A DNA stretch of 34,722 nucleotides from a virus (lineage: Duplodnaviria; Heunggongvirae; Uroviricota; Caudoviricetes). A program made the position numbers and the translations under genes. Shown piece by piece: positions 18,246-34,722 of the stretch (its first letter is position 1; every line of letters begins with the position of its first letter). The notes under the pieces were generated by a model that was not told the origin of the DNA, searched no databases, and worked only from the letters and a program-made list of their open reading frames with translations. The stretch is taken from IMG/VR virus record IMGVR_UViG_3300018050_002226; one strand, 5' to 3'.

Positions 18246-18256
18246 TTTTTATATTC

Positions 18257-18264
18257 TATAATTA
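18257..18264 (-). promoter_or_regulatory. TAnTTATA motif (TAATTATA)
   Basis: 11 nt before ATG 18245. Confidence 0.35.
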
Positions 18265-18278
18265 TAGTTTCATTTTTT

Positions 18279-19580: not shown

Positions 19581-19792
19581 AATGATTGGGTGGAAGTTAT
19601 AATACAACCTACAGCATCTACTATTTTTACCATATATGAAGTTGATGTATCATAAGGTGCGGGTATGTCAAATGTATAAGGTGTGGATGAAATCTGATTT
19701 ATATAAAAACATCCAGTACCATCCCCTTCACAGAGATATACATTGTAAGGTGACGTGCCAGTTATTGATGATATGGTTATTGTAAGTGCCAT
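19577..19792 (-). CDS. 71-aa stand-alone domain, paralog of the next gene's N-terminus
   Basis: TI.S.T...P.N.Y.C......C.......P..FD.PAPYD......KI.D..GC shared with MSQQ... Confidence 0.8.
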   Translation of the reverse strand: MALTITISSITGTSPYNVYLCEGDGTGCFYINQISSTPYTFDIPAPYDTSTSYMVKIVDAVGCIITSTQSL

Positions 19793-22700
19793 TTATCCTA
19801 TTTCTGAATTTTGTTCTACCGTTATAAGTAATATGTCTCCTCTATTTAATTCTCTCAAACACGGGTTTGATACACAGTTTATTTGTTCGAACAAACCTCC
19901 AATTTGAATTCCAAAGTTTTCGCTATTTCCCTCAATAAGTTGTGTTACTTGGCTTGCTAAAACTCCATTTATGTATGCTTTGACAACAACATTTGCTTTC
20001 GAGAAAAATCTTCCGTGTATTACTCCGACAGCTAGCTTGGATATCGAATATGGGTCTGAACCAATTAAGGTAATCAAATTGGATACAATTACACCATCGT
20101 TCAACACATCAGATGGTGGGTAGAACAATGTTCCATTATTTGGGTCAATTCCATCATAAAAAGAGACTCCAAAATTTGGACTATCGAATGTTGTTGTCGC
20201 CCCACTTGGAATATATCCCTCGAAGCTCGGTAAAACCTGAAGTTGAAGATTTATCTTTGTAGATGTTGTAAGGCACTCGTCACAAGTGTCTGATTGTAAT
20301 TCTCCCGCGGTACCGAAATAATTGTCTTGCCAAATCAAGTCAACGTAATTTGGATTTGGAACAATCGCTGTTGTAAATCCTTCATATGTCCAACACAAAC
20401 CATTGTCATCGGTGAATACTTTGGTTGGAAGAATTGGAACCGTTAATGATGAAGTTTGGAATAATCTATTAAACCTTATTGTACTTTCTTGATTAGGACA
20501 AAGGGTAAACACATAATACTTTTGCAAATTTGTTGGCGTTGGTGTCTGAGTATAAGACGGAGTTGGAGTATTTGAAGCCGTATTTGTCGGTGTTATTGAT
20601 GTAGTTGGGTCAGGGGTCAAACCTGGTGTTCTTGTAGTTGTTGTGGTCGGTGTTACTGTCGCAGTTTGGGTGGGTGTTGCAGTATTAGAAGGTGTTTGAG
20701 TTTGAGTAGGAGTAAGAGTTACTGTTGGTGTTGGGAAGACAACACAGCTCTGACAATCTGAATAAAGGTTAATAATAGAGGTTATTACAGAATTTGATGA
20801 AGTGTTAGAACGATTACCAATATATTCAACGCAAACATACTGTCCATTGATGATTGCATTCATTATTGTACCAGGTTCCACAACAAGACCGTTATATACC
20901 AATTGATTTAGTGCACAGAAATAGAAATCTGTTCCTTGAGTACATTCTTTTAGAATGGCCACCTCAGGACAAGAGATTGGTGAATCAAAAATTTCGAATG
21001 AGACTTTTCCACCCAGAGGTTCATAAACTCTTGAGCTAGTTGGTGTTGTAGTGTTAGTTGGTGTTGGTGTAGGTGTGGACTCATATAATTGGAATTCCAC
21101 GGCTTTTCCTGTACATGGATTTGTTGATGTAGGTGTTGGAGTCAATCCAAAACTGTTAAAATCAAAATCAACGTCATCACACGGTACTGACGGGCTAGGT
21201 GTTGGTATAGGTTCCCAATCACAATCGAAATATGCAACAAAGTCAATTGTGCAGGCAGATGGTGAAGGTGTAGGTGTAGGACAAACACCTGAAGTGAAGA
21301 AGTTTCCACTTACATCAGGACAGTTGGAATTACAAGGAGATGCGCCTCTTAACAAACAGGAGCCTCCAAGTGAATCACTCAAACACCAATAACTTTCAGT
21401 TGAAGAAGTAAAATAATAAATTACACCGGTGTTAATTCCATCACCTGAATATGTTAATTGAGTGTTGTAGATATATCCGTATTCTGTATAATTTCCACTA
21501 TAGTCTTCCAACTCAGGTAAAGTCGTTCTAAAACAGAAAGTAGAATATGTACATGCACTTGGTGTTGGTGAAGGTGTTGGAGTGTGAGTTGGCGTTTCTC
21601 TTGGCGTTACGGTTGGTGTTGGTGTTGGTATACATGCCGTATCTTCACAATCAAAATAACTTGGTGAACCAAGGTACGGACCACCAGGTCCATCAAATCT
21701 CACAAATTTCCAACAATCTCCTTGATAGAAATAAACACCGTATTGAAATGCCGTGTCTACATCCACCATGAAATAACTCAACAGACCATCCCTACATCTT
21801 GCAAGTTGTGCAGCCTTTCTATCAGTTCTTGGACAGTAAGTCGTATTACCACAGTAATCAATTTCAGTAAATGTAACTCCAGCAGAATTATAAAGGGGAC
21901 CTTCTGAAGTGTATGATACGACAGTGGCGCAACCTGAGAAATCCAAACTACCCTCAATCAAATAAACTGAATCAACAGGGAGATAAGGCATCGGACTACC
22001 CGCAAAACGGAATACAAAGTTCGAATCACACTCTCTAAATTGAATAACTAACTCAGGAGTCAACGTTTGGGTTGGTGTTTGGGTTTGGGTTGGCGTCTCA
22101 CTTGCAGTCTGAGTTGGAGTTTCTGTATTAGTTGGAGTTTGTGTTGGTGTCTCACTTGCAGTCTGTGTTGGGGTTTCAGTAGGTGTTTCGGAAGGAGTTT
22201 GTGTGGCTGTCTCTGTTGCTGTTGGAGTCTCTGTTGGAGTTTCTGTAGCTGTAGGTGTTAGGGTACTATTAGGTGTCGGAGTTTGTGTAGGCGTCTCGGT
22301 TTGCGTTGGAGTTTCAGTAGGTGTCTCACTCGCAGTCTGAGTTGGGGTTTCAGTAGGAGTCTCTGTTGGAGTTTCTGTTTGTGTTGGAGTTGGTGAATTA
22401 CCAGGTGTTGGAGTTTGAGTTGGTGTTTCTGTTTGCGTTGGAGTTTCAGTAGGTGTCTCGCTCGCAGTCTGAGTTGGGGTTTCCGTTGGGGTCTCACTTG
22501 CAGTTTGAGTTGGTGTTTCCGTAGGGGTTTCCGTTGGAGTTTGTGTAGGCGTGGAACCTATTGTTGCCGTAGTTGATGGAGTTGCAGTCTGAGTTGGAGT
22601 TTCAGTTGGAGTTTGTGTAGGTGTTTCAGTTTGTGTAGGCGTTTGAGTTGGAGTGTCGGTAGAGGTTTGCGTTGGTGTTTCAGTTTGTGTAGGTGTTTGA

Positions 22701-23614
22701 GTCGGAGTGTCATTAGAAGTCTGAGTAGGCGTCTCGGTGAATGTGGGTGTTTGAGTTGCAGTTTGTGTAGGGGTTTCCGTTGCAGTTTGTGTAGGTGTCT
22801 CAGTTGGAGTTACGGAAGGAGTTTGACTCGGTGTTTCAGTTTGTGTGGGTGTTTGGGTTTCGGTCGCCGTAGGTGTTAATCCAATTGTTGCAGTTGTTGA
22901 AGGTGTAGGAGTTTGAGATGGGGTTTCTGTTTGGGTGGGAGTTTCAGTTGGTGTTTCGCTTGAAGTTGGAGTCGGGGTCACATCAGCACAGACTTGGAAC
23001 TGAGAAGGTGTAATTCCTGAAATACCTAAACTAAGAGTACTTACATTGAAACTCGTACAAATCGAATCTGTTGGGCATGTGTCATATCCGTTTTGAACAT
23101 ATACAAAGAGATTAGTGCTGTTTCCAGCAAGGATTCCTGTATTATAATATACGGTTCCGTTGTAGTCAGGACAAGTGCTTGTTGAAGTGGCGGAAAATAC
23201 AACAGTTATGTTGGTAGGTGCAGGAATTTGATTTCCTCCCGGACTATCTAACAATTGAAGTTGTATTCTTCTTCTCGTATCAGTGTTTCCAATTCCACAA
23301 GGTGAGTTTATGGTATCATATACATCGTCGTCCCATACAATACAACCACCCCAAGTAGTAGGTGTTACAGTAGGTGTTGTAGTTTCTGTTGGAGTAGGAG
23401 TCACAGGACATGTCCCATAATCTACAGAGGTATCAACAAAAATACCAGTGTTAGTACCAGTATTTCCACTATACGTAACAGTGTAAAAATCTCCAGATAT
23501 TCCACTATATACAGCACCTACTGTGACTGTACCAGCAGTGGGAAAATTGTCCCATAACTCGTAGTTCAGACCATCTGTACAACTATCACCTGAAAATACC
23601 CAAAATCCTGCCAT
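19793..23614 (-). CDS. 1273-aa mucin-like modular virion-type protein
   Basis: ~310-aa TPTETPTQTA stalk (about 22070-22990) plus several Cys-rich modules joined by shorter TP linkers. Confidence 0.8.
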   Translation of the reverse strand: MAGFWVFSGDSCTDGLNYELWDNFPTAGTVTVGAVYSGISGDFYTVTYSGNTGTNTGIFVDTSVDYGTCPVTPTPTETTTPTVTPTTWGGCIVWDDDVYDTINSPCGIGNTDTRRRIQLQLLDSPGGNQIPAPTNITVVFSATSTSTCPDYNGTVYYNTGILAGNSTNLFVYVQNGYDTCPTDSICTSFNVSTLSLGISGITPSQFQVCADVTPTPTSSETPTETPTQTETPSQTPTPSTTATIGLTPTATETQTPTQTETPSQTPSVTPTETPTQTATETPTQTATQTPTFTETPTQTSNDTPTQTPTQTETPTQTSTDTPTQTPTQTETPTQTPTETPTQTATPSTTATIGSTPTQTPTETPTETPTQTASETPTETPTQTASETPTETPTQTETPTQTPTPGNSPTPTQTETPTETPTETPTQTASETPTETPTQTETPTQTPTPNSTLTPTATETPTETPTATETATQTPSETPTETPTQTASETPTQTPTNTETPTQTASETPTQTQTPTQTLTPELVIQFRECDSNFVFRFAGSPMPYLPVDSVYLIEGSLDFSGCATVVSYTSEGPLYNSAGVTFTEIDYCGNTTYCPRTDRKAAQLARCRDGLLSYFMVDVDTAFQYGVYFYQGDCWKFVRFDGPGGPYLGSPSYFDCEDTACIPTPTPTVTPRETPTHTPTPSPTPSACTYSTFCFRTTLPELEDYSGNYTEYGYIYNTQLTYSGDGINTGVIYYFTSSTESYWCLSDSLGGSCLLRGASPCNSNCPDVSGNFFTSGVCPTPTPSPSACTIDFVAYFDCDWEPIPTPSPSVPCDDVDFDFNSFGLTPTPTSTNPCTGKAVEFQLYESTPTPTPTNTTTPTSSRVYEPLGGKVSFEIFDSPISCPEVAILKECTQGTDFYFCALNQLVYNGLVVEPGTIMNAIINGQYVCVEYIGNRSNTSSNSVITSIINLYSDCQSCVVFPTPTVTLTPTQTQTPSNTATPTQTATVTPTTTTTRTPGLTPDPTTSITPTNTASNTPTPSYTQTPTPTNLQKYYVFTLCPNQESTIRFNRLFQTSSLTVPILPTKVFTDDNGLCWTYEGFTTAIVPNPNYVDLIWQDNYFGTAGELQSDTCDECLTTSTKINLQLQVLPSFEGYIPSGATTTFDSPNFGVSFYDGIDPNNGTLFYPPSDVLNDGVIVSNLITLIGSDPYSISKLAVGVIHGRFFSKANVVVKAYINGVLASQVTQLIEGNSENFGIQIGGLFEQINCVSNPCLRELNRGDILLITVEQNSEIG

Positions 23615-23988: not shown

Positions 23989-24933
23989 ATGAAAGAGGTA
24001 TGCTTAGATTTATCCCTTGCAAGAGGTTTAGGTGACACTATTTGTGCAACTCCATCTCTTAGAAAATTATATAATTCTTATGGGAAAAAGATTGCGGTAT
24101 TAACGGTTCATCCTGACGTTTTTAAAAATAGTCCATACGTTAGTGAACTGTATTTTACTGAAAATAGTAATAGAGATATTATTTCTGAAAATTACGAAGT
24201 TCTCACAAGTTTTTATCCGAACATTGAAAATAAGTTTGGAATAAGTTTAAGACACAATCAATTTGACATTAGACAATTCCATGCCTCAGGTTTAGGATTT
24301 CAACTCCTTCCCGAAGATATGGACATGGATTTTTTTCCTGATAAATTTATTACTATCGAAAATTTACCCGAAAGGTTTGTGGTAATTCATCCAGTACAAA
24401 CTTGGGCATCGAGAACTTGGTCAAAACAAAATTGGACACTTTTAACCAATATGTTGAACGATTCGGGAATTGGTGTAGTCTCGGTTGGAAAGGATTCAAG
24501 TGAAATTGGAAATTCAAATGTGCAAAAACCGGTTTTTGATTTCCCTATTGAACTAGGTTTAAATTTACTCAACAATGCTAATTTATCTCAGACTTGGTGG
24601 TTAATGGAAAAATCAGTTGGTGTTGTAACGATGGATTCGGGAATGCTTCATTTAGCTGGAACAACTGATGCCCATATCTTTCAATTAGGTAGTTCGGTAG
24701 ATTACAAACTCAGAGCACCCTTCAGGAATGGATTACAAAACTACAAATATGACTATATTTCAGGTGAATGCAAAATAGCTTGTGCTTCTGACATGAAATA
24801 TGGTGTAAAATATTGGGAGTCAGTAAGAGGGATTCCTTCTCTTGTTGGTTGTTTAGAAAATTATCAAACATTCCTTTGTCACCCTAATGTTTTACAGGTT
24901 TACAATAAAATAATGAATACAATAGAAAAATGA
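23989..24933 (+). CDS. Glycosyltransferase family 9 (heptosyltransferase-like)
   Basis: RGLGDTICATPSLRKL, FVVIHP, VVTMDSGMLHLAGT; C-terminal Cys cluster. Confidence 0.85.
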   Translation: MKEVCLDLSLARGLGDTICATPSLRKLYNSYGKKIAVLTVHPDVFKNSPYVSELYFTENSNRDIISENYEVLTSFYPNIENKFGISLRHNQFDIRQFHASGLGFQLLPEDMDMDFFPDKFITIENLPERFVVIHPVQTWASRTWSKQNWTLLTNMLNDSGIGVVSVGKDSSEIGNSNVQKPVFDFPIELGLNLLNNANLSQTWWLMEKSVGVVTMDSGMLHLAGTTDAHIFQLGSSVDYKLRAPFRNGLQNYKYDYISGECKIACASDMKYGVKYWESVRGIPSLVGCLENYQTFLCHPNVLQVYNKIMNTIEK

Positions 24934-27900
24934 AAAAACATTTTAATTTCATTGAAATTGGAACATCCGATTTTCACACCCTAATAGAACAATCAACTGA
25001 CAATACTGTTGGATTAAGTATTGAACCAATAGAATATTATTTGAACAGATTACCCAATAAAAAAAATGTAAAAAAAATTAATGCCGCAGTCTCTAATGAA
25101 AACGGAGAAATAGAAATTTATTTAATTGAACCTGAAGACATCATTAAGAATAACTTACCTATTTGGGTAAAAGGATGTAACTCAGTTAATAAACCTCACG
25201 AATTTACTAGAAACAAGTTGGGTCCTGATTTTTATGATAGTATCGTAAAAATTAAAAAAGTGCCAACAATCGACTGGAATACAATCATTAACGAAAATGA
25301 AGTAAAGAGTGTCGGTTACGTTAAAATTGACACTGAAGGTTATGACCACGTGATACTAAAAAATTATTTTGAATATTGTGAAAAAAACCCAAGTCTTTAC
25401 GCAAACAAGATTATGTTCGAATATAATGAGTCCTCAAACAAAGAGGAGCTTGAAAAACTAATAAAGAATTTACCCAATTACACAATTGAAAGATTGGAAG
25501 AGGATATTGTTTTACACAAAGTATCAGGTCTTTTTTACAAAGGTAAAAAAATTGCAGACAGAGGTTGTGTAATCAATTTACCCGAAAGAAATGATAGAAG
25601 GATTAATATTGAAAAAACATTAACAGAATTAAATTTCAGTGGTTTCGAATTTGTGGATGGTGTTGTAATGGAGAATGAAGAATACAAGAAATTAGGTTGT
25701 ACACAAGCATATATGAACATATTCCAAGATTTTCTTGATTCAGATATGCAAAATATTTTGATTTTTGAAGACGATTTGAAATTGATGGACGGAGTAACCG
25801 AAAAACAATTAGATAAGATATTTGATAATTGGCATGAATCGGTTGAAAGATACGATGTTTTAGCGCTTGGAATTAAACTACTCCCGAGAAGCAAAATATA
25901 CCCCAACTCAGAAACGGATGGTTCTTTTAAAGAAATGTTATGTTCCCAATCTCTTTTTTATAAAAGAAATTTTATAGAACATTATGTAGACCAAATGAAG
26001 AACTATCTTGACCCGAGCCATTACCTTTACAAATGTACCATTGATATGTTTTTGAATGATTCAACAAACTCTCAATTTAGATTCCGTCACGGAGCAGGTC
26101 ACAAAGTTTTTGATTTTGGAATTACAATCCCGATGATTTTTACTCAGACGTTAAGTTATTCTGATAATGAAAACAAAATTCAAAATTATGATTCCATAAT
26201 GAAAGATGTATTTTGGAAAAGTTTAGTTCATCAAAGAGGTTATGTCTATTTAGCAAATGAAAAATATTTCGATATTGTTCAAACTTCGGCTCGTTCTGTT
26301 AGAGAGTTTAGTAAGTATCCAATTTTTGTTTACATGTTGAACTCAGACAAAAAGGTAAATGTTGAAAATACAACGACAATTCGGTGGGATGTAAATTTAC
26401 CTAAATCCTCTGAACCGATGTATAACTCTGATGGTGAAAATTTTTATATCGATAGAAGTAATTCCACCATTTATAATATATTAATTCAACGAATTAACGC
26501 TGTTAAACACGCTCTTGAAAATTTTGTTCAAACCGCTGTTTATATCGATAGTGATTCTATCGCAACTCCATACATTGATTCCATTTTTGACATGTATAAT
26601 GAAGAAACCACATATCCTTTCTTTGTTGAAGGAATTTATGATTGGATGTTTCTCAATGGTAGAGGTGGTGCCGAGTCCATGGATGACCTTAGCAATACAT
26701 TAGAGGCCCCCGCTTGTGAATTATTCAACATTGACCAATATGTTAGACAAAAATATAGACAAACAGGGTATTTTGTTGCTGGTCAAAAATCCTTAGATTT
26801 CCTTGAGGAGTGGTATTGGTACTGTACTCATCCAAAAGTATTAAAAAATACTTCTTGGTACGCCGCGTACAATGAAGAAACAATTATGAATGTTCTGACT
26901 TACAAACATAAAATATTTGATGGTCTTCCATATATCTACGTGAACGGTGGTCCAGAGATTGTAGATAAAATGTATACAGAAGTAGAATTTTTAGGAGAAG
27001 ATGTAAGAAATCATTTAGGAAATTGGCTTCGAGCACCTGAATCCAAAGAAAAAATATTGTTTTTCCATGGTGAAAAAAGAATAGATAAAATGGAAAAAAT
27101 GATTGAGAAGATTAAGGGTTATTTTGAATATGATATTAAACCTCCGAAAAATTGGGGTGATATAATTTCTCATAAAGTTATTCAACATTTTTCAGGTCAA
27201 AAAATATATTCTTCAGATGTGTTTCATTTTGACCCAGACGCGAGAGTTCCTTTCTTGGAAGGAAAACTATTGGCCGCAGGAAGTATCCTTATGTATTCCC
27301 TACCAACAGATTATGTTTGGGGTTCGGGATGTATCAAAGAAAACGAAGTGGGTCTCCCACCAAAAAAATATTATGCTGTCAGAGGACCATTAACACGAAA
27401 TGAACTTTTGAAAGTAAACAGGGAATGTCCCGAAGTATATGGAGACCCTGGACTTTTGTTTCCAAGAATATACAACCCCGACATTGAGAAAAAATATAAG
27501 TATGGAGTAATTCCACACTACATAGATTTTAGACACCCAGAGACTTTAAAATGCCTTAAAAAGTTAAAGGAGATGGGAGCTAAAATAATTAACATTACGG
27601 CGGGTTTATATGAATTTGTTGACCAATTAAAAGAGGTTGAATTTGTAATCTCATCAAGTCTACACGGTCTTATAGCCGCAGATGCTTATGGAATTCCAAA
27701 CTCAAGAATATATTTTTCAAATAACATCAATGGCGGCGATTTCAAATACATGGACTATTATTATTCTGTTAATAGACATTATGAAACGCCAAAAACAATA
27801 ACTTACGAAAACGCAGAACAATTAATTAATGAACTCGTTTTCGATTTAGGGGATACAAGTATTGCGGATAAACTATTAGAATCCGCACCTTGGAATGACC

Positions 27901-30083
27901 CATCATGTATTTTATTTAATTCAAACAAAAAAATGAGATTACTATTTGTTGCCCCGCATTTATCCACAGGTGGAATGCCCGGGTTCCTATTGAAAAAAAT
28001 TCAATTATTAAAGCAGTATTACCCTGAAATTAAAATCTACGTCGTAGAGTATCAGAGTTATGGAGACGCATATGTTGTTCAAAGAAATCAAATTATCGAC
28101 ATTGTTGATAGAGGTAATTTCTGGACTCTCGGTCCCGATAAATCTGAACTTATCCGTATTATTAAAAGCAATGAAATAGATATTGTCCACGTACAAGAAA
28201 TGATAGAAGGATTTGATTCTTTTAATCAAATGCCTCCTGAAATAATGAGTCAACTTTATAGTAATGATAGGACATGGAAAATGGTTGAAACTTGCCATAA
28301 CGTGTGGTTCAACCACGAGGAACACAAGATATTTTATCCTGAGGCCTTTGCATTCTGTACCCCTTATCACAAAGATGTTACATTCAAAAATGTTCCATCA
28401 TATAGTGAAAATATTGAATTCCCAATTGAAAAGAAAATCTTTACAGAGGAAGAACGTATTGCCGCTAGAAGAGAGTTAGGGTTCGGAAAAGACAAAATCC
28501 ATGTGATAAATGTTGGACTTTGGACAAAAGGAAAAAATCAGGGGGAAGGTGTTGAAATTGCCAGACTTCTGAGAAAAACAAACCCCGAAATAGTATTTCA
28601 TTTTATTGGAAACCAAGCGTCCAATTTCAAAGACTATTGGGGACCAATCATGAAAAATCTCCCGATGAACGTGAAAGTTTGGGGTGAACGTGCGGATGTG
28701 GATACTTTTATGAAAGCCGCGGATGTTTTCATGTTTAACTCGACTTGGGAATGTAACCCCCTCGTTCTAAGAGAAGCAATATCCTATGGGTTAAAGGTTT
28801 TATGTAGAAACCTTCCACAATATATGGATATGTTTACTCCATACATCGAACCAATTGATGAGAATATCGAAACAACAAAAGAAAAGTTGTTGTCTCTTAT
28901 CAAAGAAGATGTTAAATACAAAACTCCACAAGGACAAGAAGAAATTTTTGCTTCCAAATATTCTGATTTTTATAAAAAGGTTTTGGACCTTCCTGTAAGA
29001 GAACAATACTTTAAAACAAAATTGTCTGTAACCCAATATTTCATTAATCAACCTTTCATAGAAATAAAAGGAAAAAGTGAAAACAAATTCAAAATTCAGT
29101 TTTTTGATGAAAAAGGGGTTTTACATTATGAAAATCATCTTGCGATTAACAGTTGGGTTAAACTTAATAGACAATATTTCACAAGATGGACCACGAAGGT
29201 TTGGGAAAATGACAATTTAGTTTATGAAAACACTTTAAATTACGAAGGTAAACGTGTTTACATTGCTTTTGACTCGAAATCCTTGGGTGATACAATTTCA
29301 TGGGTTCCTTACGCAGAAGAATTCAGAAAAGTTCATAACTGTGAAGTAGTGGTTTCAACTTTTTGGAATCATCTTTTTGAATCTGTTTACCCCGATTTAA
29401 AGTTTGTACATCCAGGGACTACTGTCAATGGAATTCACGGAATGTATAAACTTGGTTGGTTCTATAATGTAGATATGCAACCCACAAAACCAAACCTTAT
29501 CCCCTTACAACAGACAGCAACCGACATTCTTGGTTTGGAATACAAAGAAATTCAACCAAAAATACATTATGAGATTAAAGAAAGACCATATGCGGAAAAG
29601 TATGTGACAATAGCAACAAACTCTACCGCAGGATGTAAGTTTTGGACAAGAGAAGGTTGGCAAGAAACCATAAATTATCTAACATCACTCGGTTATAAAG
29701 TAGTAAACGTTTCCAAAGAAAATAACCCATTTGAAAACCAAATTAGAATTACCGACACCTCAATGGAGAATACCATGAATGTTATACACCATAGTGAATT
29801 TTTCATAGGATTGTCGAGTGGATTAAGTTGGCTCGCTTGGGGAATGGGTAAACATGTTGTAATGATTAGTAACTTTACAACTCCTGACCACGAATTTCAA
29901 TCCAACTGTACAAGAATAATAAACTTATCAGTTTGTAATGGTTGTTGGAATAAACCCGAATTTACTTTTGATAAAGGGGACTGGGATTGGTGTCCTGTAC
30001 ACAAAGGAACTGAAAGACATTTCGAATGTCATAAATCAATCACATCCGACATGTTAATCAAACAAATACAACATTTATTATGA
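24930..30083 (+). CDS. 1717-aa multi-domain glycan-processing enzyme: FkbM-like MTase, GT25-like, DxD GT-A, polysaccharide pyruvyl transferase, GT4, TibC/Aah-like glycosyltransferase
   Basis: IEIGTSD/KIDTEGYD; INLPERNDRR/IFEDD; YIDSDS/NEET; NWGD/AVRGPLT/GDPGLL/SSSLHG; GGMP/ADVFMFNSTWE.NPLVLREA; SKSLGDT/FIGLSSGLSWLAW/CNGCWN..WCP..FEC. Confidence 0.85.
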   Translation: MKKHFNFIEIGTSDFHTLIEQSTDNTVGLSIEPIEYYLNRLPNKKNVKKINAAVSNENGEIEIYLIEPEDIIKNNLPIWVKGCNSVNKPHEFTRNKLGPDFYDSIVKIKKVPTIDWNTIINENEVKSVGYVKIDTEGYDHVILKNYFEYCEKNPSLYANKIMFEYNESSNKEELEKLIKNLPNYTIERLEEDIVLHKVSGLFYKGKKIADRGCVINLPERNDRRINIEKTLTELNFSGFEFVDGVVMENEEYKKLGCTQAYMNIFQDFLDSDMQNILIFEDDLKLMDGVTEKQLDKIFDNWHESVERYDVLALGIKLLPRSKIYPNSETDGSFKEMLCSQSLFYKRNFIEHYVDQMKNYLDPSHYLYKCTIDMFLNDSTNSQFRFRHGAGHKVFDFGITIPMIFTQTLSYSDNENKIQNYDSIMKDVFWKSLVHQRGYVYLANEKYFDIVQTSARSVREFSKYPIFVYMLNSDKKVNVENTTTIRWDVNLPKSSEPMYNSDGENFYIDRSNSTIYNILIQRINAVKHALENFVQTAVYIDSDSIATPYIDSIFDMYNEETTYPFFVEGIYDWMFLNGRGGAESMDDLSNTLEAPACELFNIDQYVRQKYRQTGYFVAGQKSLDFLEEWYWYCTHPKVLKNTSWYAAYNEETIMNVLTYKHKIFDGLPYIYVNGGPEIVDKMYTEVEFLGEDVRNHLGNWLRAPESKEKILFFHGEKRIDKMEKMIEKIKGYFEYDIKPPKNWGDIISHKVIQHFSGQKIYSSDVFHFDPDARVPFLEGKLLAAGSILMYSLPTDYVWGSGCIKENEVGLPPKKYYAVRGPLTRNELLKVNRECPEVYGDPGLLFPRIYNPDIEKKYKYGVIPHYIDFRHPETLKCLKKLKEMGAKIINITAGLYEFVDQLKEVEFVISSSLHGLIAADAYGIPNSRIYFSNNINGGDFKYMDYYYSVNRHYETPKTITYENAEQLINELVFDLGDTSIADKLLESAPWNDPSCILFNSNKKMRLLFVAPHLSTGGMPGFLLKKIQLLKQYYPEIKIYVVEYQSYGDAYVVQRNQIIDIVDRGNFWTLGPDKSELIRIIKSNEIDIVHVQEMIEGFDSFNQMPPEIMSQLYSNDRTWKMVETCHNVWFNHEEHKIFYPEAFAFCTPYHKDVTFKNVPSYSENIEFPIEKKIFTEEERIAARRELGFGKDKIHVINVGLWTKGKNQGEGVEIARLLRKTNPEIVFHFIGNQASNFKDYWGPIMKNLPMNVKVWGERADVDTFMKAADVFMFNSTWECNPLVLREAISYGLKVLCRNLPQYMDMFTPYIEPIDENIETTKEKLLSLIKEDVKYKTPQGQEEIFASKYSDFYKKVLDLPVREQYFKTKLSVTQYFINQPFIEIKGKSENKFKIQFFDEKGVLHYENHLAINSWVKLNRQYFTRWTTKVWENDNLVYENTLNYEGKRVYIAFDSKSLGDTISWVPYAEEFRKVHNCEVVVSTFWNHLFESVYPDLKFVHPGTTVNGIHGMYKLGWFYNVDMQPTKPNLIPLQQTATDILGLEYKEIQPKIHYEIKERPYAEKYVTIATNSTAGCKFWTREGWQETINYLTSLGYKVVNVSKENNPFENQIRITDTSMENTMNVIHHSEFFIGLSSGLSWLAWGMGKHVVMISNFTTPDHEFQSNCTRIINLSVCNGCWNKPEFTFDKGDWDWCPVHKGTERHFECHKSITSDMLIKQIQHLL

Positions 30084-30751
30084 ATTTAGAAAATTTTATT
30101 TGGGAACCCGAGTGTTATGAGGGTTTTAAACAAACAGTTTACAAAGAAATTTTTGTAGATAATCTGTATGAAAAATACTTTGAGGTTGAACCAGGAGATG
30201 TTGTTTTCGATGTAGGAGCAAGTTTGGGTCCTTTCACTTTCTCTATTTTGAATAAAAATCCCTCTCATGTCTTCGCGTTTGAACCATCTTTAGCTGAATT
30301 CATAACACTAGTTAAGAATACTAACTTTGGTCCTGTTACACAAATTAATAAAGGTATCTCTAATGTTGATGGTGAATTCAATTTTGAATTCGTTTTTGAA
30401 AACCAAGATAATAATAAACTATACTCAACCACATTCAAATCTGTAATTTCAAGTTACAATATTTCGAAAATCGATTTTTTAAAAACTGATTGCGAGGGAG
30501 GTGAATATGATATTTTCAATATTGAAAATTTACTTTGGATAAAATCTAATGTTAGAAAAATTGTAGGAGAATGGCACCTAAGAACACCAGAATTAAAATC
30601 TAAATTTAAAATTTTCAGAGACACTTACCTGAGGATTTTCCCAAATTTCAAAGTAAGGTCTTGGAATGGTTTAAACATAGAAGAAAAATTTTGGACTGAT
30701 GAGTTCATAGATGTTTTTACTGAAATTATAATTTACATAGATAATAGATAA
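30080..30751 (+). CDS. FkbM-family SAM-dependent methyltransferase
   Basis: VVFDVGASLG, VFAFEP, LKTDCEGGEY. Confidence 0.9.
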   Translation: MNLENFIWEPECYEGFKQTVYKEIFVDNLYEKYFEVEPGDVVFDVGASLGPFTFSILNKNPSHVFAFEPSLAEFITLVKNTNFGPVTQINKGISNVDGEFNFEFVFENQDNNKLYSTTFKSVISSYNISKIDFLKTDCEGGEYDIFNIENLLWIKSNVRKIVGEWHLRTPELKSKFKIFRDTYLRIFPNFKVRSWNGLNIEEKFWTDEFIDVFTEIIIYIDNR

Positions 30752-30753
30752 AA

Positions 30754-30779
30754 AAAAGGGAAGTTTTCACTTCCCTTTT
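30754..30779. terminator. Bidirectional hairpin terminator between convergent genes
   Basis: AAAAGGGAAGT-TTTC-ACTTCCCTTTT, between stops at 30751 (+) and 30785 (-). Confidence 0.8.
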
Positions 30780-30784
30780 CAATT

Positions 30785-33700
30785 TTATTTATTCGGTTTG
30801 TACTCTAATAAGACCTTTTCCACATCTTTACGTTCAGCTTGAACCATGAAGTAAGCGTTTATTTCACCTGTCTCAGAGCCAATCACAACTGTGTTCTCTT
30901 CAACTTTCACCACGAAGTGGTCGTTTGACTTTCCGATAGGTGTTAGATGAACTGTTGTTGTTTCAAGGTCTACCAATTCACTCCAATAGTCAGGTAATTC
31001 AATTACTTCACTTGTAGCTTTACCTCTGTGGTAAACTCCGTGTTCAGGACCTTCCAACACACCGTATCTTAATCTATATCCTTCTTTTGTTGGGTGAGGA
31101 ATGTCAAATGACTTGGACGCCGCTGTTAGTGAACCTGTAATCGTAACATCGCCCGTAACTGATAAGGTTGTACCGTCGAATTGTAAATTTGCTTCACCAT
31201 TGATAGTTCCCGCTGTTCCAGTTGCTGTTAGAACGTAGTTGTTTACATTATTGTTAATCGTTCCAAGACCTGAAGTACCTGAGGTTCCTGTAGTTCCTGA
31301 TGAACCAGATGTTCCTGATGAACCTGAAGTACCGGTTGTACCCGAAGTACCTGTTGTTCCTGACGTTCCGCTTGTACCAGTCGTTCCTGATGTTCCGCTA
31401 GTACCTGATGAACCATTAGTTCCGGATGTACCAGAGGTTCCTGTAGTTCCGCTTGTACCAGATGTTCCAGAAGAACCAGAAGTTCCCGTAGTCCCAGATG
31501 TTCCAGAGGTTCCTGTAGTTCCACTAGTACCTGATGAACCATTAGTTCCAGATGTACCAGATGTTCCTGTAGTTCCGCTTGTACCAGATGAACCAGACGT
31601 ACCTGATGAGCCAGAGGTTCCTGTAGTTCCTGATGTACCAGATGTTCCTGTAGTTCCGCTTGTACCAGATGTTCCAGATGAACCTGATGTTCCTGTAGTT
31701 CCAGATGTACCAGAAGTTCCGGATGAACCTGAAGTTCCTGTAGTTCCGCTTGTACCAGATGTTCCAGATGAACCTGACGTTCCTGTTGTACCCGAAGTGC
31801 CAGACGTACCTGATGACCCAGAAGTACCTGTTGTTCCACTCGTACCTGACGTACCTGATGAGCCAGAAGTACCTGTTGTTCCGCTTGTTCCAGACGTTCC
31901 ACTTGAACCTGACGTTCCTGTTGTACCAGATGTGCCTGAGGTTCCTGAAGAACCATTAGTTCCTGACGTACCTGATGTTCCACTTGAACCTGATGTTCCT
32001 GAAGTACCTGTTGTTCCGCTCGTACCTGATGTTCCTGAAGTACCTGTTGTTCCGCTTGTACCAGATGTTCCACTTGAACCTGATGTACCAGTCGTTCCAC
32101 TTGTACCTGACGTTCCACTTGAACCTGAAGTTCCTGATGTTCCACTTGTACCAGACGTTCCACTTGAACCTGATGTACCAGTCGTTCCACTTGTACCTGA
32201 CGTACCTGATGAACCTGATGTTCCTGATGTACCACTTGTCCCTGAGGTTCCAGATGAACCATCTGTACCACTTGTTCCTGAAGAACCTGATGTACCCGTA
32301 GTTCCTGAAGTACCACTTGTACCAGTTGTACCAGAAGTTCCCGATGTACCTGAAGTACCGCTAGTTCCGGTTGTGCCAGATGTACCTGATGTTCCACTTG
32401 AACCTGATGTACCAGTTGTTCCTGAAGTACCTGATGTTCCACTTGAACCTGAAGTACCGCTTGTTCCTGTTGTTCCACTTGTTCCTGAAGAACCTGAAGT
32501 ACCACTTGTACCTGTTGTTCCAGAAGTTCCCGATGTACCAGAAGTTCCAGATGTACCATCAGTACCACTTGTTCCTGATGAACCACTTGTACCAGACGTA
32601 CCACTTGTTCCTGTCGTACCTGAAGTTCCAGATGTACCTGAAGTACCTGTTGTTCCTGAGGTTCCAGATGTGCCTGAGGTACCTGAAGTGCCCGTTGTTC
32701 CAGAGGTTCCTGAAGTGCCCGTTGTTCCAGAGGTTCCTGACGTACCTGAAGTACCTGAAGTACCTGAAGTGCCCGATGTACCATCCGTTCCACTTGTTCC
32801 CGATGAACCACTTGTTCCTGATGTTCCACTAGTTCCTGTAGTTCCAGAAGTACCAGATGTTCCTGACGTACCACTTGTTCCAGTTGTGCCAGATGTACCT
32901 GATGTACCACTTGTTCCTGTTGTGCCTGAAGTACCAGATGTTCCCGAAGTTCCACTTGAACCTGATGTACCGTCAGTTCCACTTGTTCCTGATGAGCCTG
33001 ATGTTCCTGAAGTTCCAGTAGTTCCTGAAGTTCCACTTGTACCTGATGTACCTGTAGTACCTGAAGTTCCTGAGGTACCGCTAGTTCCAGTCGTTCCGGA
33101 TGTTCCTGAAGTTCCACTTGAACCTGATGTTCCGGTTGTACCTGAAGTACCAGATGTTCCCGAAGTTCCACTTGAACCTGATGTACCGTCAGTTCCACTT
33201 GTCCCTGAAGAGCCTGAGGTTCCCGAGGTTCCTGAAGAACCACTGGTACCTGATGTTCCTGTAGTGCCTGAAGTTCCACTTGTACCTGATGTTCCTGTTG
33301 TACCCGATGTACCGCTGGTCCCACTTGTACCTGTTGTACCCGATGTACCGCTGGTCCCACTTGTACCTGTTGTACCCGATGTACCGCTGGTACCACTTGT
33401 TCCAGTTGTACCCGATGTACCGCTGGTACCACTTGTTCCAGTTGTACCTGAAGTACCCGATGTACCTGAAGTTCCGGAAGTTCCATCTGTACCGCTAGTT
33501 CCTGATGAACCTGATGTTCCAGAAGTACCGCTAGTACCTGTAGTACCGGAAGTTCCACTTGTACCTGTTGTACCCGATGTTCCACTAGTACCTGATGTAC
33601 CGCTAGTTCCAGTTGTACCAGAAGTTCCACTTGTGCCAGAGGTACCCGTTGTACCAGATGTTCCTGATGTACCACTTGTTCCTGTTGTACCTGAAGTACC

Positions 33701-34722
33701 CGAAGTTCCACTTGTTCCCGTTGTACCTGAAGTACCCGAAGTTCCACTTGTTCCCGTTGTACCTGAAGTACCCGAAGTTCCACTTGTTCCAGTTGTACCT
33801 GAAGTACCCGAAGTTCCACTTGTTCCAGTTGTTCCTGAAGAACCTGACGTTCCTGAAGTTCCACTTGTACCCGAGGTTCCATCAGTTCCACTTGTACCTG
33901 ATGAACCTGATGTTCCTGAAGTTCCACTTGTACCTGTTGTTCCACTTGTACCTGAAGTTCCGCTTGTACCTGTTGTACCTGAAGTACCACTTGTACCCGT
34001 TGTTCCAGAAGTTCCGCTTGTTCCTGAAGTACCACTTGTTCCCGTTGTACCAGATGTACCACTTGTTCCCGTCGTACCAGAAGTACCACTTGTCCCGGAT
34101 GTTCCACTAGTACCCGTTGTTCCAGAGGTTCCTGACGTACCTGAAGTACCAGTTGTACCTGAAGTGCCACTTGTTCCTGATGTGCCTGAAGTGCCTGAAG
34201 TACCAGTTGTACCTGAAGTACCACTTGAACCGGATGTTCCCGTTGTTCCGCTGGTTCCAGATGTACCTGATGTTCCACTTGTTCCTGAAGTTCCATCAGT
34301 ACCGCTAGTCCCTGATGAACCTGATGTACCTGATGTTCCGCTAGTACCTGTTGTGCCAGATGTACCTGATGTTCCACTAGTACCTGTTGTGCCAGATGTT
34401 CCCGAAGTACCACTAGTACCTGTTGTACCGGATGTTCCTGACGTTCCACTAGTACCCGTCGTACCAGATGTACCACTAGTGCCGGAGGTTCCACTTGTAC
34501 CTGTCGTACCTGATGTACCACTTGAGCCAGAGGTACCTGTTGTTCCACTTGTTCCAGTTGTTCCACTTGTACCTGAAGTACCACTTGTACCTGTTGTGCC
34601 AGATGTGCCTGATGTTCCTGATGTACCACTTGTACCTGTTGTGCCTGATGTGCCAGATGTACCTGATGTTCCCGTTGTACCTGAAGTACCCGAAGTTCCA
34701 CTTGTTCCAGTTGTACCTGAAG
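30785..34722 (-). CDS. Giant Gly-Thr-Ser repeat fibre protein, 5'-truncated (at least 1311 aa visible)
   Basis: Frame from 34720: SGTTGTSGTS... continues without a stop into GLGTINNNVNNYVLTATGTAGTINGEANLQFDGTTLSVTGDVTITGSLTAASKSFDIPHPTKEGYRLRYGVLEGPEHGVYHRG...KPNK*, absorbing the 91-aa ORF 30785-31060. Confidence 0.92.
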   Translation of the reverse strand, partial: SGTTGTSGTSGTSGTTGTSGTSGTSGTTGTSGTSGTSGTSGTTGTSGTSGTSGTTGTSGTTGTSGSSGTSGTTGTSGTSGTSGTSGTTGTSGTSGTSGTTGTSGTSGTSGTTGTSGTSGTSGTTGTSGTSGTSGSSGTSGTDGTSGTSGTSGTSGTSGTTGTSGSSGTSGTTGTSGTSGTSGTSGTSGTTGTSGTSGTSGTTGTSGTSGTSGTSGTTGTSGTSGTTGTSGTSGTSGTSGTTGTSGTSGTTGTSGTSGTSGTTGTSGTSGTSGSSGTSGTDGTSGTSGTSGTSGSSGTTGTSGTSGTSGTTGTSGTSGTSGTTGTSGTSGTSGTTGTSGTSGTSGTTGTSGTSGTSGTTGTSGTSGTSGTTGTSGTSGTSGTSGTTGTSGTSGTTGTSGTSGTSGSSGTSGTDGTSGTSGTSGTSGTTGTSGTSGTSGTTGTSGTSGTSGTTGTSGTSGTSGTTGTSGTSGTSGTTGTSGTSGTSGTTGTSGTSGSSGTSGTSGSSGTSGTDGTSGSSGTSGTSGTSGTTGTSGSSGTSGTSGTTGTSGTSGTSGTTGTSGTSGTSGTTGTSGTSGSSGTSGTDGTSGSSGTSGTSGTSGTTGTSGTSGTSGTTGTSGTSGTSGTSGTTGTSGTSGTSGSSGTSGTDGTSGTSGTSGTSGTSGTSGTTGTSGTSGTTGTSGTSGTSGTSGTTGTSGTSGTSGTTGTSGTSGTSGSSGTSGTDGTSGTSGTSGTSGTTGTSGTSGSSGTSGTTGTSGTSGSSGTSGTSGTTGTSGSSGTSGTSGTTGTSGTSGTSGTSGTTGTSGTSGTTGTSGSSGTSGTDGSSGTSGTSGTSGTSGSSGTSGTSGTTGTSGSSGTSGTSGTSGTSGSSGTSGTSGTTGTSGSSGTSGTSGTTGTSGTSGTSGTTGTSGTSGSSGTSGTSGTNGSSGTSGTSGTTGTSGSSGTSGTSGTTGTSGSSGTSGTSGTTGTSGSSGTSGTSGTTGTSGSSGTSGTSGTTGTSGSSGTSGTSGTTGTSGSSGTSGTSGTTGTSGTSGTTGTSGSSGTSGSSGTSGTTGTSGTSGTNGSSGTSGTTGTSGTSGTTGTSGSSGTSGTSGTTGTSGTSGTNGSSGTSGTSGTTGTSGTSGTTGTSGTTGTSGSSGTSGSSGTTGTSGTSGLGTINNNVNNYVLTATGTAGTINGEANLQFDGTTLSVTGDVTITGSLTAASKSFDIPHPTKEGYRLRYGVLEGPEHGVYHRGKATSEVIELPDYWSELVDLETTTVHLTPIGKSNDHFVVKVEENTVVIGSETGEINAYFMVQAERKDVEKVLLEYKPNK
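31271..34717 (-). repeat. 383 consecutive Gly-X-Y triplets (X=T/S; Y=S/T, rarely D/N)
   Basis: 3447 nt = 383 x 9; GGN-ACN-TCN/AGY/ACN pattern with synonymous variation and local 36-nt exact repeats. Confidence 0.92.

What the first reader, a model, noticed from the sequence alone, without database searches (positions are those of the whole stretch)
30785..34722. Hidden giant gene: 383 unbroken, proline-free Gly-Thr-Ser triplets
The ORF track shows only a shifted-frame 1152-aa ORF and a 91-aa tail, but they belong to one gene whose start lies beyond the window. Gly occurs at every third residue for at least 1149 aa, with no Pro and almost no charge. As a collagen-like helix (~0.29 nm per residue) that is at least ~330 nm; alternatively it could be a polyproline-II bundle like Gly-rich springtail antifreeze proteins, with a regular Thr/Ser face that might bind ice. 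Established: glycosylated Thr stabilises Riftia cuticle collagen, and Bacillus anthracis BclA collagen repeats are O-glycosylated, so folding may depend on the neighbouring GTs.
Basis: partly seen in the sequence, partly recalled or inferred. Interest (0 to 1): 0.85.

Follow-up and report, generated by a model that had tools for sequence, protein, structure and literature searches.

The report
Giant proline-free collagen-like phage fibre gene
An uncultured freshwater phage hides, in a frame that gene callers miss, a fibre gene of at least 2,500 codons made mostly of proline-free Gly-Thr-Ser triplets, ending in a predicted trimeric knob and lying next to an enzyme that probably sugar-coats it.

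Summary
Observation confirmed. The minus frame 30785-34720 is open for 1311 codons: 383 unbroken Gly-X-Y triplets (GTS 262, GTT 72, GSS 38, GTD 8, GTN 3; no Pro), then a 158-aa C-terminal domain. Codon statistics and homology fix this frame. JGI and ENA gene calls took the antisense strand instead.

Overlapping contigs from other samples agree base for base, apart from in-frame 36-nt and 9-nt indels. They extend the gene to at least 2529 aa and about 713 triplets (longest run 414), with a 59-aa Cys node and a 168-aa jelly-roll node. The 5' end is still open.

The C-terminal domain belongs to a large unnamed phage family (6063 clusters). It is predicted to be a homotrimer and resembles tail-fibre and tailspike tip domains.

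Complete relatives exist in IMG/VR: 2058 aa, and about 2642 aa with a 622-triplet run. So this gene is one member of an undescribed class, not a unique case.

The convergent neighbour ends in a TibC/Aah-type protein O-glycosyltransferase that passes the TIGR04414 cut-off. That pairing held in all 7 lineages tested. This scan has already flagged the same pairing on other DNA, in at least 38 genomes.

The triple helix and the glycosylation are inferred, not shown. The antifreeze and ice-binding idea has no support.

The parts
30785..34720 (-). 3' part (1311 codons plus stop) of the collagen-like fibre gene. The 5' end runs off the window.
   Evidence: Open frame. The ENA contig L002 continues the same frame to 1953 aa. 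JGI contig L010 brings the composite to at least 2529 aa, still open at the 5' end.
31271..34717 (-). 383 unbroken, Pro-free Gly-X-Y triplets (GTS/GTT/GSS/GTD/GTN). This is the window's share of a 414-triplet run.
   Evidence: Triplet and codon counts. Codon-position entropy. Pfam PF01391 8.8e-37. 414-triplet run in L002.
33330..33391 (-). Zone of a 36-nt (12-aa, four-triplet) length polymorphism between the window/JGI version and the ENA version.
   Evidence: One gap and 0 mismatches over 14.6 kb. Position located.
31136..31270 (-). GLG triplet plus the neck between the array and the knob (residues 1151-1195). Low confidence as a monomer, but makes dense inter-chain contacts in the trimer model.
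   Evidence: Monomer pLDDT 45-75. Trimer interface includes A1 positions 13-68.
30788..31135 (-). Conserved C-terminal beta-sandwich knob (KSFDIPHPTKEG...LEGPE...AERKDV motif block).
   Evidence: phrog_17490 3.3e-40 and phrog_28536. tblastn hits to T4-like cyanophages and Flavobacterium phage immuto. 6063 clusters in the representative library. AF2 core pLDDT above 90. Structural matches to fibre and tailspike tips. Trimer score 0.95 against a best control of 0.00.
30753..30780 (.). Bidirectional intrinsic terminator hairpin between the fibre gene and the convergent glycosyltransferase operon.
   Evidence: 12-bp stem followed by a T-run, on both strands. Sequence seen.
31243..34701 (-). Spurious shifted-frame 1152-aa ORF (Q/V/L/E-rich).
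   Evidence: ORF list. Frame composition.
31239..34721 (+). Spurious antisense ORF (V/P/E/D-rich). This is the one the JGI and ENA gene callers actually annotated (1207 and 1301 aa).
   Evidence: Called genes in L002 and L003. Frame composition.
24930..30083 (+). Convergent 1717-aa multi-domain enzyme: FkbM methyltransferase, GT25, a block between GT25 and the pyruvyl transferase that has no Pfam hit here, pyruvyl transferase, GT4, and a TibC-type domain at 29067-30080. Candidate modifier of the fibre.
   Evidence: Pfam. PDB 4rap 3.9e-50. TIGR04414 290.9 bits, above the 200-bit cut-off. Synteny in relatives.
30080..30751 (+). FkbM-family methyltransferase, last gene of the cassette.
   Evidence: PF05050 1.7e-08. 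58-68% identical orthologues in the same position in L012-L016.
23989..24933 (+). GT9-family glycosyltransferase, first gene of the cassette.
   Evidence: PF01075 1.3e-10. 67% identical orthologue in L012-L015.

Best explanation
The region is the 3' two-fifths of one real, very large structural gene of an uncultured freshwater tailed phage. Its product is a segmented, homotrimeric collagen-like fibre.

Reading from N to C in the composite of three overlapping contigs:
- an N-terminus not yet found; in complete relatives this is a roughly 50-aa 'ITDLP...DRLYIVT' module
- at least 149 Gly-X-Y triplets
- a 59-aa Cys-containing node
- 138 triplets
- a 168-aa TNF/C1q-like jelly-roll node
- 12 triplets, one Ala-for-Gly triplet, then 414 triplets
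- a neck and a 115-aa beta-sandwich knob

Proposed mechanism:
1. The knob (and the jelly-roll node) trimerise and set the register.
2. The Gly-X-Y stretches then zip into triple helices. This would give a thin fibre with a contour length of about 0.6 micrometres or more, at about 0.29 nm per residue.
3. Because the array has no Pro and no ion pairs, the helix is probably stabilised and protected by O-glycans. These would be put on the Y-position Ser residues in the cytoplasm by the TibC/Aah-type domain of the convergent 1717-aa enzyme, then elaborated by its other transferase domains.
4. The fibre would enlarge the phage's capture radius, and the knob would sit at its distal end.

Shown here: the gene, its frame, its extension, the family membership of the knob, the TibC-type identity of the neighbour, and the conserved pairing.

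Predicted in silico: the trimer and the folds.

Inferred: the triple helix, the glycosylation of this protein, its place on the virion, and its function.
For: Frame and gene.

Extension from independent samples: 0 mismatches over 14.6 kb and over 2.06 kb, with only 36-nt and 9-nt in-frame indels that keep the Gly register.

No repeat collapse expected in the window: the longest exact repeat is 71 nt.

Collagen Pfam: 125 bits against a cut-off of 27.2.

Knob: phrog_17490. It is found at the C-terminus of proteins of 150-3405 aa (listed best hits) in a family of 6063 clusters. A homologue sits next to gp5 and tail-fibre genes in cyanophage S-SSM7. A homologue is annotated 'putative tail fiber-like protein' in Flavobacterium phage immuto. 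Best structural matches are the cyanophage Pam1 tailspike C-terminal domain (Z 8.2, rmsd 1.9, 65 aligned), the AP22 gp53 fibre tip (Z 6.3) and the R2 pyocin fibre (Z 5.9).

Trimer: ipSAE 0.95 against a best control of 0.00, partner pLDDT 91, runs agreeing in at least 93% of contacts. In the tool's calibration, 20 of 30 proteins solved as pairs of one chain reached the mark and 1 of 23 solved as single chains did.

Internal node: pLDDT 84.9, jelly roll. It matches the CocE C-terminal domain (TM 0.70-0.72) and the TNF family, the BC2L-C lectin and a cyanophage A-1(L) short-tail-fibre domain. It has homologues in 336 collagen-repeat proteins.

Register: not one break in 414 triplets.

Neighbour enzyme: TibC 4rap 1.6e-51, with Asp110, Thr226, Lys230, Trp305 and all four iron-finger Cys conserved. 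TIGR04414 equivalog passed. TibC modifies Ser, not Thr (PMC4358343).

Pairing: a TibC-like gene lies within 10 kb in 7 of 10 IMG/VR loci whose knob-bearing fibre has a Pro-free Ser/Thr-rich array, and in 0 of 70 without one. The records of the other three loci (two lineages) carry one 12 and 16 kb away.

A GT1 + FkbM cassette also lies near the fibre gene of a distant relative.
Against: The start codon and N-terminal anchor were not found, so the full length and the attachment end are unknown.

Gly-Thr-Ser triplets lack every classical triple-helix stabiliser (Pro/Hyp, Lys-Asp/Glu pairs). From published host-guest data as I recall them, an unmodified helix would be marginal.

The knob is 40-75% identical across phages of cyanobacteria, Flavobacterium and unknown hosts. 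That is unusually conserved for a host-specific receptor-binding tip, so it may be mainly a folding or trimerisation cap, or even the virion-attachment end.

The fold matches for the knob are middling: the best Z is 8.2, a range the tool says can be common.

The TibC-type domain has Thr in place of the sugar-binding Arg286, so the donor sugar is uncertain.

Four other Ser/Thr/Pro-rich proteins (16047-23614) flank the cassette on its other side and could be its substrates instead, or as well.

The lineages in the co-occurrence count are related, so the count is not a probability.
Confidence: 0.7

Rival explanations
1. The Gly-Thr-Ser array is not a triple helix. It is a flexible, mucin-like, heavily O-glycosylated spacer (an entropic bristle or tether), held together only at the trimeric globular nodes.
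For: There is no Pro and almost no charge. About 66% Ser+Thr is typical of mucin-type glycosylated linkers. A protein O-glycosyltransferase cassette sits next door. Other Thr/Pro-rich stalk proteins lie in the same neighbourhood, according to an earlier first-reader note on 16047-23614 that I did not check.
Against: A disordered linker has no reason to keep Gly at exactly every third residue for 414 triplets without a break, or across about 713 triplets with a single Gly-to-Ala exception. Nor has it reason to keep that register in relatives with up to 622 triplets. Both length polymorphisms seen are multiples of 9 nt, which preserves the register, although n is only 2. The flanking nodes are of trimeric fold types.
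Confidence: 0.17
2. The array folds as a bundle of antiparallel polyproline-II helices, like springtail (snow-flea) antifreeze proteins, with a Thr/Ser face that binds ice.
For: Period-3 Gly and small side chains. A 36-nt (12-residue) higher-order unit exists. The source is a cold freshwater habitat (sample records).
Against: Gly is 33.3% of residues, with one Gly per triplet. Close polyglycine-II packing in the known antifreeze bundles uses far more Gly (from my knowledge). No turn or register break occurs in 1242 residues. The array is bracketed by trimeric fibre-type domains and belongs to a phage fibre family. Nothing in the data bears on ice.
Confidence: 0.03
3. The real gene is the antisense (Val-Pro-Glu/Asp-rich) or shifted-frame ORF that the public pipelines annotated, and the Gly-Thr-Ser frame is a by-product of the repeat.
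For: The antisense frame has 0 stops over the array, and it was the frame called in the JGI and ENA records.
Against: The variable positions are the third codon positions of the Gly-Thr-Ser frame only. Ser is conserved across the TCN and AGY codon families. Only this frame continues into the conserved knob, the jelly-roll node and the Cys node. The terminator follows its stop codon.
Confidence: 0.01

Closest known systems
Phage collagen-like tail-fibre proteins (Smith et al. 1998, 'Bacteriophage collagen'; Gly-X-Y ORFs of T4-like cyanophages such as P-SSM2 orf28, PMC1079782; prophage EPclA-type proteins of E. coli O157:H7, PMC3368898)
   Same: Gly-X-Y repeats in a phage structural or fibre context, bracketed by non-collagen trimerising domains. 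X and Y are often Ser/Thr in the cyanophage examples. The same C-terminal knob occurs in T4-like cyanophage proteins.
   Different: Scale: a 414-triplet unbroken run and about 713 triplets in at least 2529 aa, against at most 136 triplets in the 273 relatives first sampled. Pro is completely absent. The fibre is paired with a TibC-type glycosyltransferase cassette.
Uncultured-phage relatives in IMG/VR: L015 (2058 aa, 252-triplet run) and L019 (about 2642 aa, 622-triplet run, record rated 100% complete)
   Same: The same knob (58-71% identity over the core, tblastn). Pro-free GTS/GSS arrays. A TibC-type enzyme adjacent or 12 kb away. Segmentation by small nodes.
   Different: Different nodes: neither has the jelly-roll node of this gene in the same place. 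Triplet mix also differs: GSS-rich there, GTS/GTT-rich here. Those genes are complete, while this one still lacks its 5' end.
Bacillus anthracis BclA exosporium protein
   Same: A Thr-rich collagen-like stalk that is O-glycosylated, with a C-terminal trimeric jelly-roll domain that nucleates the trimer (PMC8968730, and my knowledge).
   Different: BclA repeats are Pro-containing (GPT) and number at most a few dozen triplets. There is no sequence similarity to the knob or the node here. The glycosylation machinery is different.
Riftia pachyptila cuticle collagen
   Same: Here Ser occupies Y in 300 of 383 triplets.
   Different: It is an animal, secreted, Pro-containing collagen carrying galactosyl-Thr. 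It is not homologous, and here the modification is only inferred.
TibC-TibA and Aah-AIDA-I (bacterial autotransporter heptosyltransferases, BAHT; PDB 4RAP; TIGR04414)
   Same: The neighbour's last domain passes the equivalog model and keeps the catalytic Asp and the iron-finger Cys tetrad. BAHTs hyperglycosylate Ser residues of a long repetitive substrate in the cytoplasm.
   Different: The domain is fused into a multi-domain phage enzyme. Arg286 is Thr and Pro300 is Ser. The presumed substrate is a Gly-X-Y array, not a beta-helix passenger domain.

Membership tests
Collagen triple-helix repeat proteins (Pfam PF01391) | Gly at every third residue over long, uninterrupted stretches | tested here: met
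   383 unbroken triplets in the window and 414 in the ENA contig. PF01391 scores 125.1 bits against a cut-off of 27.2.
Collagen triple-helix repeat proteins (Pfam PF01391) | High imino-acid (Pro/Hyp) content in X/Y, or another known stabiliser such as charge pairs | tested here: not met
   0 Pro, 0 Lys/Arg/Glu and 8 Asp in 1149 residues.
Collagen triple-helix repeat proteins (Pfam PF01391) | An adjacent non-collagen domain that trimerises the chains | tested here: met
   In silico only. C-terminal domain x3 scores 0.95 against a best control of 0.00, with pLDDT 91. The internal node has a TNF-like jelly-roll fold.
Collagen triple-helix repeat proteins (Pfam PF01391) | Right-handed triple helix of three polyproline-II strands (CD, melting, protease resistance) | not testable with these tools
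   Needs recombinant protein. No structure job was available for the array.
Phage fibre C-terminal knob family (phrog_17490 / phrog_28536; no Pfam or NCBIfam model) | Full-length match to the family profile, located at the extreme C-terminus | tested here: met
   3.3e-40, profile positions 96-241 of 266. All 150 listed relatives carry it at their C-terminus. There are 17 invariant columns in a 48-sequence alignment. No Pfam or NCBIfam hit.
Phage tail fibre / receptor-binding protein | Virion location and host binding | not testable with these tools
   Indirect evidence only: fold likeness to fibre and tailspike tips, the genomic place of homologues next to gp5 and tail-fibre genes, and a depositor's annotation 'putative tail fiber-like protein'.
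Springtail-type polyproline-II bundle antifreeze proteins | Very high Gly content and short PPII helices joined by register-breaking turns into a compact bundle | tested here: not met
   Gly is 33.3%, and there is no register break or turn motif in 1149 (window) or 1242 (ENA) residues. The family features are recalled from knowledge, not from a tool.
BAHT / hepto_Aah_TibC (TIGR04414), for the neighbour's C-terminal domain | Score above the equivalog cut-off | tested here: met
   290.9 bits against a cut-off of 200, profile positions 27-373 of 374.
BAHT / hepto_Aah_TibC (TIGR04414), for the neighbour's C-terminal domain | Catalytic base Asp110, sugar-binding Thr226/Lys230/Arg286/Trp305, iron-finger Cys339/342/358/370 (PMC4358343) | tested here: inconclusive
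   Asp110, Thr226, Lys230, Trp305 and all four Cys align identically. Arg286 aligns with Thr. Pro300 aligns with Ser, as in Aah.
BAHT / hepto_Aah_TibC (TIGR04414), for the neighbour's C-terminal domain | Heptosylates Ser of an autotransporter passenger domain | not testable with these tools
   No autotransporter is present in this phage window. The substrate is inferred to be the Ser/Thr-rich fibre from conserved pairing.

The most novel reading that the evidence does not exclude
Large freshwater phages build micrometre-scale collagen triple helices that contain no imino acids at all. The helices would be made foldable in the bacterial cytoplasm by dense O-glycosylation of the Y-position Ser by a TibC-type enzyme. 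That would be a third, independent solution to collagen stabilisation (after hydroxyproline and charge/hydration networks) and a genetically compact, recombinantly accessible one. This gene would be among its longest examples, with a run of at least 414 unbroken triplets in a fibre of about 0.6 micrometres.
Probability: 0.35. Interest if true: 0.85.

Novelty: new variant of a known kind. Interest (0 to 1): 0.6.

Why it matters
1. Annotation. Public pipelines called the antisense strand, so the true protein is missing from protein databases and a spurious Val-Pro-Glu repeat protein stands in its place. The same error probably hides many such genes.

2. Collagen biochemistry. An unbroken run of 414 triplets is longer than the roughly 338 of fibrillar animal collagens (my knowledge), yet it has no Pro, Hyp or ion pairs. 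That asks how such a helix could be stable. The conserved TibC-type partner offers a directly testable answer.

3. Phage biology. A fibre of about 0.6 micrometres would be several times longer than classical tail fibres. It suggests a long-range host-capture strategy in dilute lake water.

4. Phage-encoded protein glycosylation is known for a few mycobacteriophages. A fibre-specific system would widen that picture.

Because complete relatives exist in IMG/VR, and the pairing was already flagged repeatedly in this scan, this locus matters as an extreme example rather than as a first sighting.

Tried and rejected
- Own genome: not held.
- An exact 41-nt pattern from the knob was not found in IMG/VR. 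Megablast of 21 kb of the window against GenBank phages found nothing.
- Walking along the long parent contig failed: the look-up of encoding contigs returned only short contigs for a gene at the window's other end.
- The hunt for the N-terminus failed. The single metagenome scan gave one contig (L010) that is itself open at both ends. A search with the 59-aa Cys node mostly returned matches to the Gly-X-Y flanks. A search with the N-terminal 50 aa of the closest complete relative found three proteins, none from this phage.
- The internal node has no Pfam, PHROG or NCBIfam family; its PHROG and Pfam hits came only from its Gly-X-Y flanks.
- Foldseek against the PDB with the knob gave nothing at E <= 0.001. 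Only the VIA-align search gave coherent but middling matches.
- The 314-aa GT9 protein has no PDB relative by sequence.
- Literature searches for phage collagen plus glycosyltransferase, or for virion glycosylation, found no description of this class in the held library. That is weak evidence of absence.
- A distant relative's locus (L011) showed no glycosyltransferase within its flanks.
- Records G004 and G005 (arrays with less Ser/Thr) had no TibC-like match, but they are only about 30% complete.

Full report
OBSERVATION

The minus-strand frame from 34720 to the TAA at 30785-30787 is open for 1311 codons. After one Ser come 383 consecutive Gly-X-Y triplets: GTS 262, GTT 72, GSS 38, GTD 8, GTN 3. 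A GLG triplet follows. There is no Pro, Lys, Arg or Glu. The last 158 residues are non-repetitive.

An open frame is not decisive here. The repeat keeps the antisense frame free of stops, and a second sense-strand frame has only one. The sense frame is fixed by other evidence:
- Codon positions 1 and 2 of Gly and position 2 of X are invariant over 383 units, while the three third positions carry 1.4-1.7 bits of entropy.
- Ser is held through both codon families, TCN 246 and AGY 92.
- Only this frame runs on into conserved globular domains.
- A 12-bp hairpin plus T-run follows its stop.
- Pfam Collagen scores 125 bits against a cut-off of 27.2.

IS THE ASSEMBLY SOUND, AND HOW BIG IS THE GENE?

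No genome is held for the window, so I used exact protein look-ups of a neighbouring gene.
- A JGI contig (L003) is 100% identical to the window over 14,643 nt.
- An ENA contig from another sample (L002) has 0 mismatches and one 36-nt gap, located at about 33330-33391.

Repeat units are only about 70-73% identical at DNA level, and the longest exact repeat inside the window's array is 71 nt. Collapse is therefore not expected. In both public records the gene callers annotated the antisense strand (1207 and 1301 aa) plus the 91-aa tail, so the gene really is hidden.

L002 continues the frame to 1953 aa, still open. It reads: 345 aa of triplets, a 168-aa globular node, 12 triplets, one Ala-for-Gly triplet, a run of 414 triplets, and then the C-terminal domain.

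A third contig, L010 (JGI, another sample), overlaps L002 by 2,061 nt. That overlap includes the unique node and has 0 mismatches and one 9-nt gap. L010 is one open frame from end to end. It adds at least 149 triplets, a 59-aa node with five Cys, and makes the segment before the jelly-roll node 138 triplets long.

The composite is at least 2529 aa with about 713 triplets, and its 5' end is still open. Exact repeats of 115-122 nt occur in that upstream part and explain why contigs end there. The repeat count upstream is therefore less secure than in the window. I did not find the start.

WHAT THE GLOBULAR PARTS ARE

C-terminal domain:
- It has no Pfam or NCBIfam model but matches phrog_17490 (3.3e-40) and phrog_28536.
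- By tblastn it occurs in T4-like cyanophages and in Flavobacterium phage immuto, where the depositor calls the protein 'putative tail fiber-like'.
- In cyanophage S-SSM7 the homologue lies just after gp5 and near tail-fibre genes.
- An exhaustive profile-free search found 6063 clusters at E <= 0.001. In all 150 listed hits the domain sits at the C-terminus, in proteins of 150 to 3405 aa.
- A 48-sequence alignment has 17 invariant columns.
- The AF2 model has a confident beta-sandwich core.
- Foldseek found nothing significant. VIA-align's best rows are all distal domains of trimeric phage fibres or spikes: cyanophage Pam1 tailspike (Z 8.2, rmsd 1.9, 65 aligned), AP22 gp53 (Z 6.3) and R2 pyocin fibre (Z 5.9). 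These values are middling by the tool's own note.
- Three copies are predicted to form an intertwined trimer. The score is 0.95 against a best control of 0.00, partner pLDDT is 91, and the runs agree in at least 93% of contacts. In the tool's calibration, 20 of 30 proteins solved as pairs of one chain and 1 of 23 solved as single chains reached the mark. The counts hold only roughly here, because three copies and my own alignment were used.

Internal node:
- It is a jelly roll (pLDDT 84.9), like the C-terminal domain of CocE-type hydrolases (TM 0.70-0.72). More weakly, it resembles TNF-family ligands, the trimeric BC2L-C lectin and a cyanophage short-tail-fibre domain.
- It recurs in 336 metagenomic collagen-repeat proteins, many ending in a Peptidase_S74 tail-fibre chaperone domain.

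HOW UNUSUAL IS IT?

Among the first 273 relatives, Pro-free Ser/Thr-rich triplets were the rule, but the longest run was 136 triplets.

A scan of IMG/VR with the knob alignment showed that most knob-bearing fibres have no collagen array at all. It also turned up complete giants:
- L015: 2058 aa, with a 252-triplet run and 71% knob identity.
- L019: about 2642 aa, with a 622-triplet run, on a record rated 100% complete.

Both begin with a short N-terminal module (M..ITDLP..DRLYIVT..GTSG), also seen in three other proteins. So this gene is an extreme member of a real but, as far as my searches of the held library show, undescribed class. Collagen-like ORFs in aquatic phages are mentioned in papers only in passing, as candidate tail fibres.

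THE NEIGHBOURING TRANSFERASES

A + strand operon converges on the fibre gene: a GT9 protein, a 1717-aa fusion, and an FkbM methyltransferase. The fusion contains FkbM, GT25, pyruvyl-transferase, GT4 and a final GT9-like domain.

That last domain of the fusion is the only part with a solved relative, and the relative is TibC (3.9e-50). TibC is the enzyme that heptosylates Ser residues of the TibA adhesin in the cytoplasm (PMC4358343).
- The alignment keeps Asp110, Thr226, Lys230, Trp305 and the four iron-finger Cys.
- Arg286 is Thr and Pro300 is Ser.
- It passes the NCBIfam equivalog TIGR04414: 290.9 bits against a cut-off of 200.

Of 80 IMG/VR loci with the knob, ten have a Pro-free Ser/Thr-rich array of at least 50 triplets.
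- Seven of these ten have a TibC-like gene within 10 kb, in the same convergent position and with a similar cassette at 40-68% identity.
- None of the other 70 do.
- The records of the three exceptions (two lineages) carry one 12 kb and 16 kb away.
- With the window, that makes 7 of 7 lineages.

These lineages are related, so this is a pattern and not a statistic. A more distant fibre relative has a convergent GT1/GT1/FkbM cassette 3-9 kb away, and another showed none within its flanks. The scan's notebook shows the same pairing flagged on other DNA in at least 38 genomes. I used those notes as agreement, not as evidence.

MECHANISM

My best reading is a homotrimeric, segmented collagen-like fibre.
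1. The knob and the jelly-roll node set the trimer and the register.
2. The Gly-X-Y segments zip into triple helices.
3. At about 0.29 nm per residue, the 2139 collagen-register residues seen so far would span about 0.6 micrometres.
4. Since the array lacks all classical stabilisers, I infer that O-glycans stabilise and protect it. The TibC-type domain would put them on Ser, which occupies Y in 300 of 383 triplets; TibC takes Ser and not Thr. The other domains would extend them. The parallel is glycosylated Y-position Thr in Riftia cuticle collagen, and glycosylated BclA (my knowledge).
5. The function would be long-range host capture.

Caveat on the knob: it is so conserved across phages of different hosts that it may be chiefly a folding cap, or even the attachment end, rather than a host-specific receptor binder.

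RIVALS

- A mucin-like disordered tether. This is plausible from composition, but it does not explain a Gly register that is unbroken for 414 triplets here and 622 in L019.
- The springtail-type polyproline-II bundle. Disfavoured: 33% Gly, no turns, and a trimeric fibre context. Nothing bears on ice.
- The antisense ORF. Excluded by the codon evidence.

VERDICT

This is a new variant of a known kind (phage collagen-like fibres), and one extreme example of a recurrent, apparently undescribed class paired with a protein glycosyltransferase.

Noticed in passing
window 31239-34721 (+); L002 11160-15065; L003 11172-14792: The JGI and ENA pipelines annotated the antisense Val/Pro/Glu/Asp-rich ORF of the array as the gene. 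Protein databases therefore hold a spurious repeat protein and lack the true one. The same error is likely for other Gly-Thr-Ser arrays.
   Followed up: partly
L010 1348-1524 (residues 450-508 of P0274), upstream of the window: A 59-aa node with five Cys (GLSCLSYDVYNP...NGVCNG) interrupts the collagen array. It has no family assignment. A search with it returned mostly matches to the Gly-X-Y flanks.
   Followed up: partly
window 33330-33391; L002 about 14708-14716: Natural length polymorphisms of 36 nt and 9 nt between samples. Both are multiples of 9, so the Gly register is kept. Otherwise there are 0 substitutions over 14.6 kb and 2 kb between lakes or samples.
   Followed up: yes
L012 7742-10483, compared with L015 4304-10483: Two IMG/VR contigs have the same glycosyltransferase cassette (identical tblastn identities and coordinates), but in L012 the fibre frame is broken inside the array and the upstream part reads in a shifted frame. 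This could be an assembly error or a real frameshift.
   Followed up: no
window 29067-30080 (+): The TibC-type domain has Thr where TibC has the sugar-binding Arg286, and Ser where TibC has Pro300 (the D,D- versus L,D-heptose determinant; Aah has Ser). This hints at a different or Aah-like donor sugar.
   Followed up: partly
window 16047-23614 (-): Large proteins on the other side of the transferase cassette share phrog_15511, and one has SprB repeats (Bacteroidota gliding adhesin module). An earlier first-reader note calls them Ser/Thr/Pro-rich, which I did not check. They are alternative or additional substrates for the cassette, and they hint at a Bacteroidota host.
   Followed up: no
P0126 (3198 aa) and P0194 (3405 aa): The knob family includes giants of more than 3000 aa. 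P0126 matches the query in 13 separate stretches, which suggests internal repeats of the neck motif.
   Followed up: no
window 30753-30780: A single hairpin serves as an intrinsic terminator on both strands for the two convergent transcription units.
   Followed up: yes
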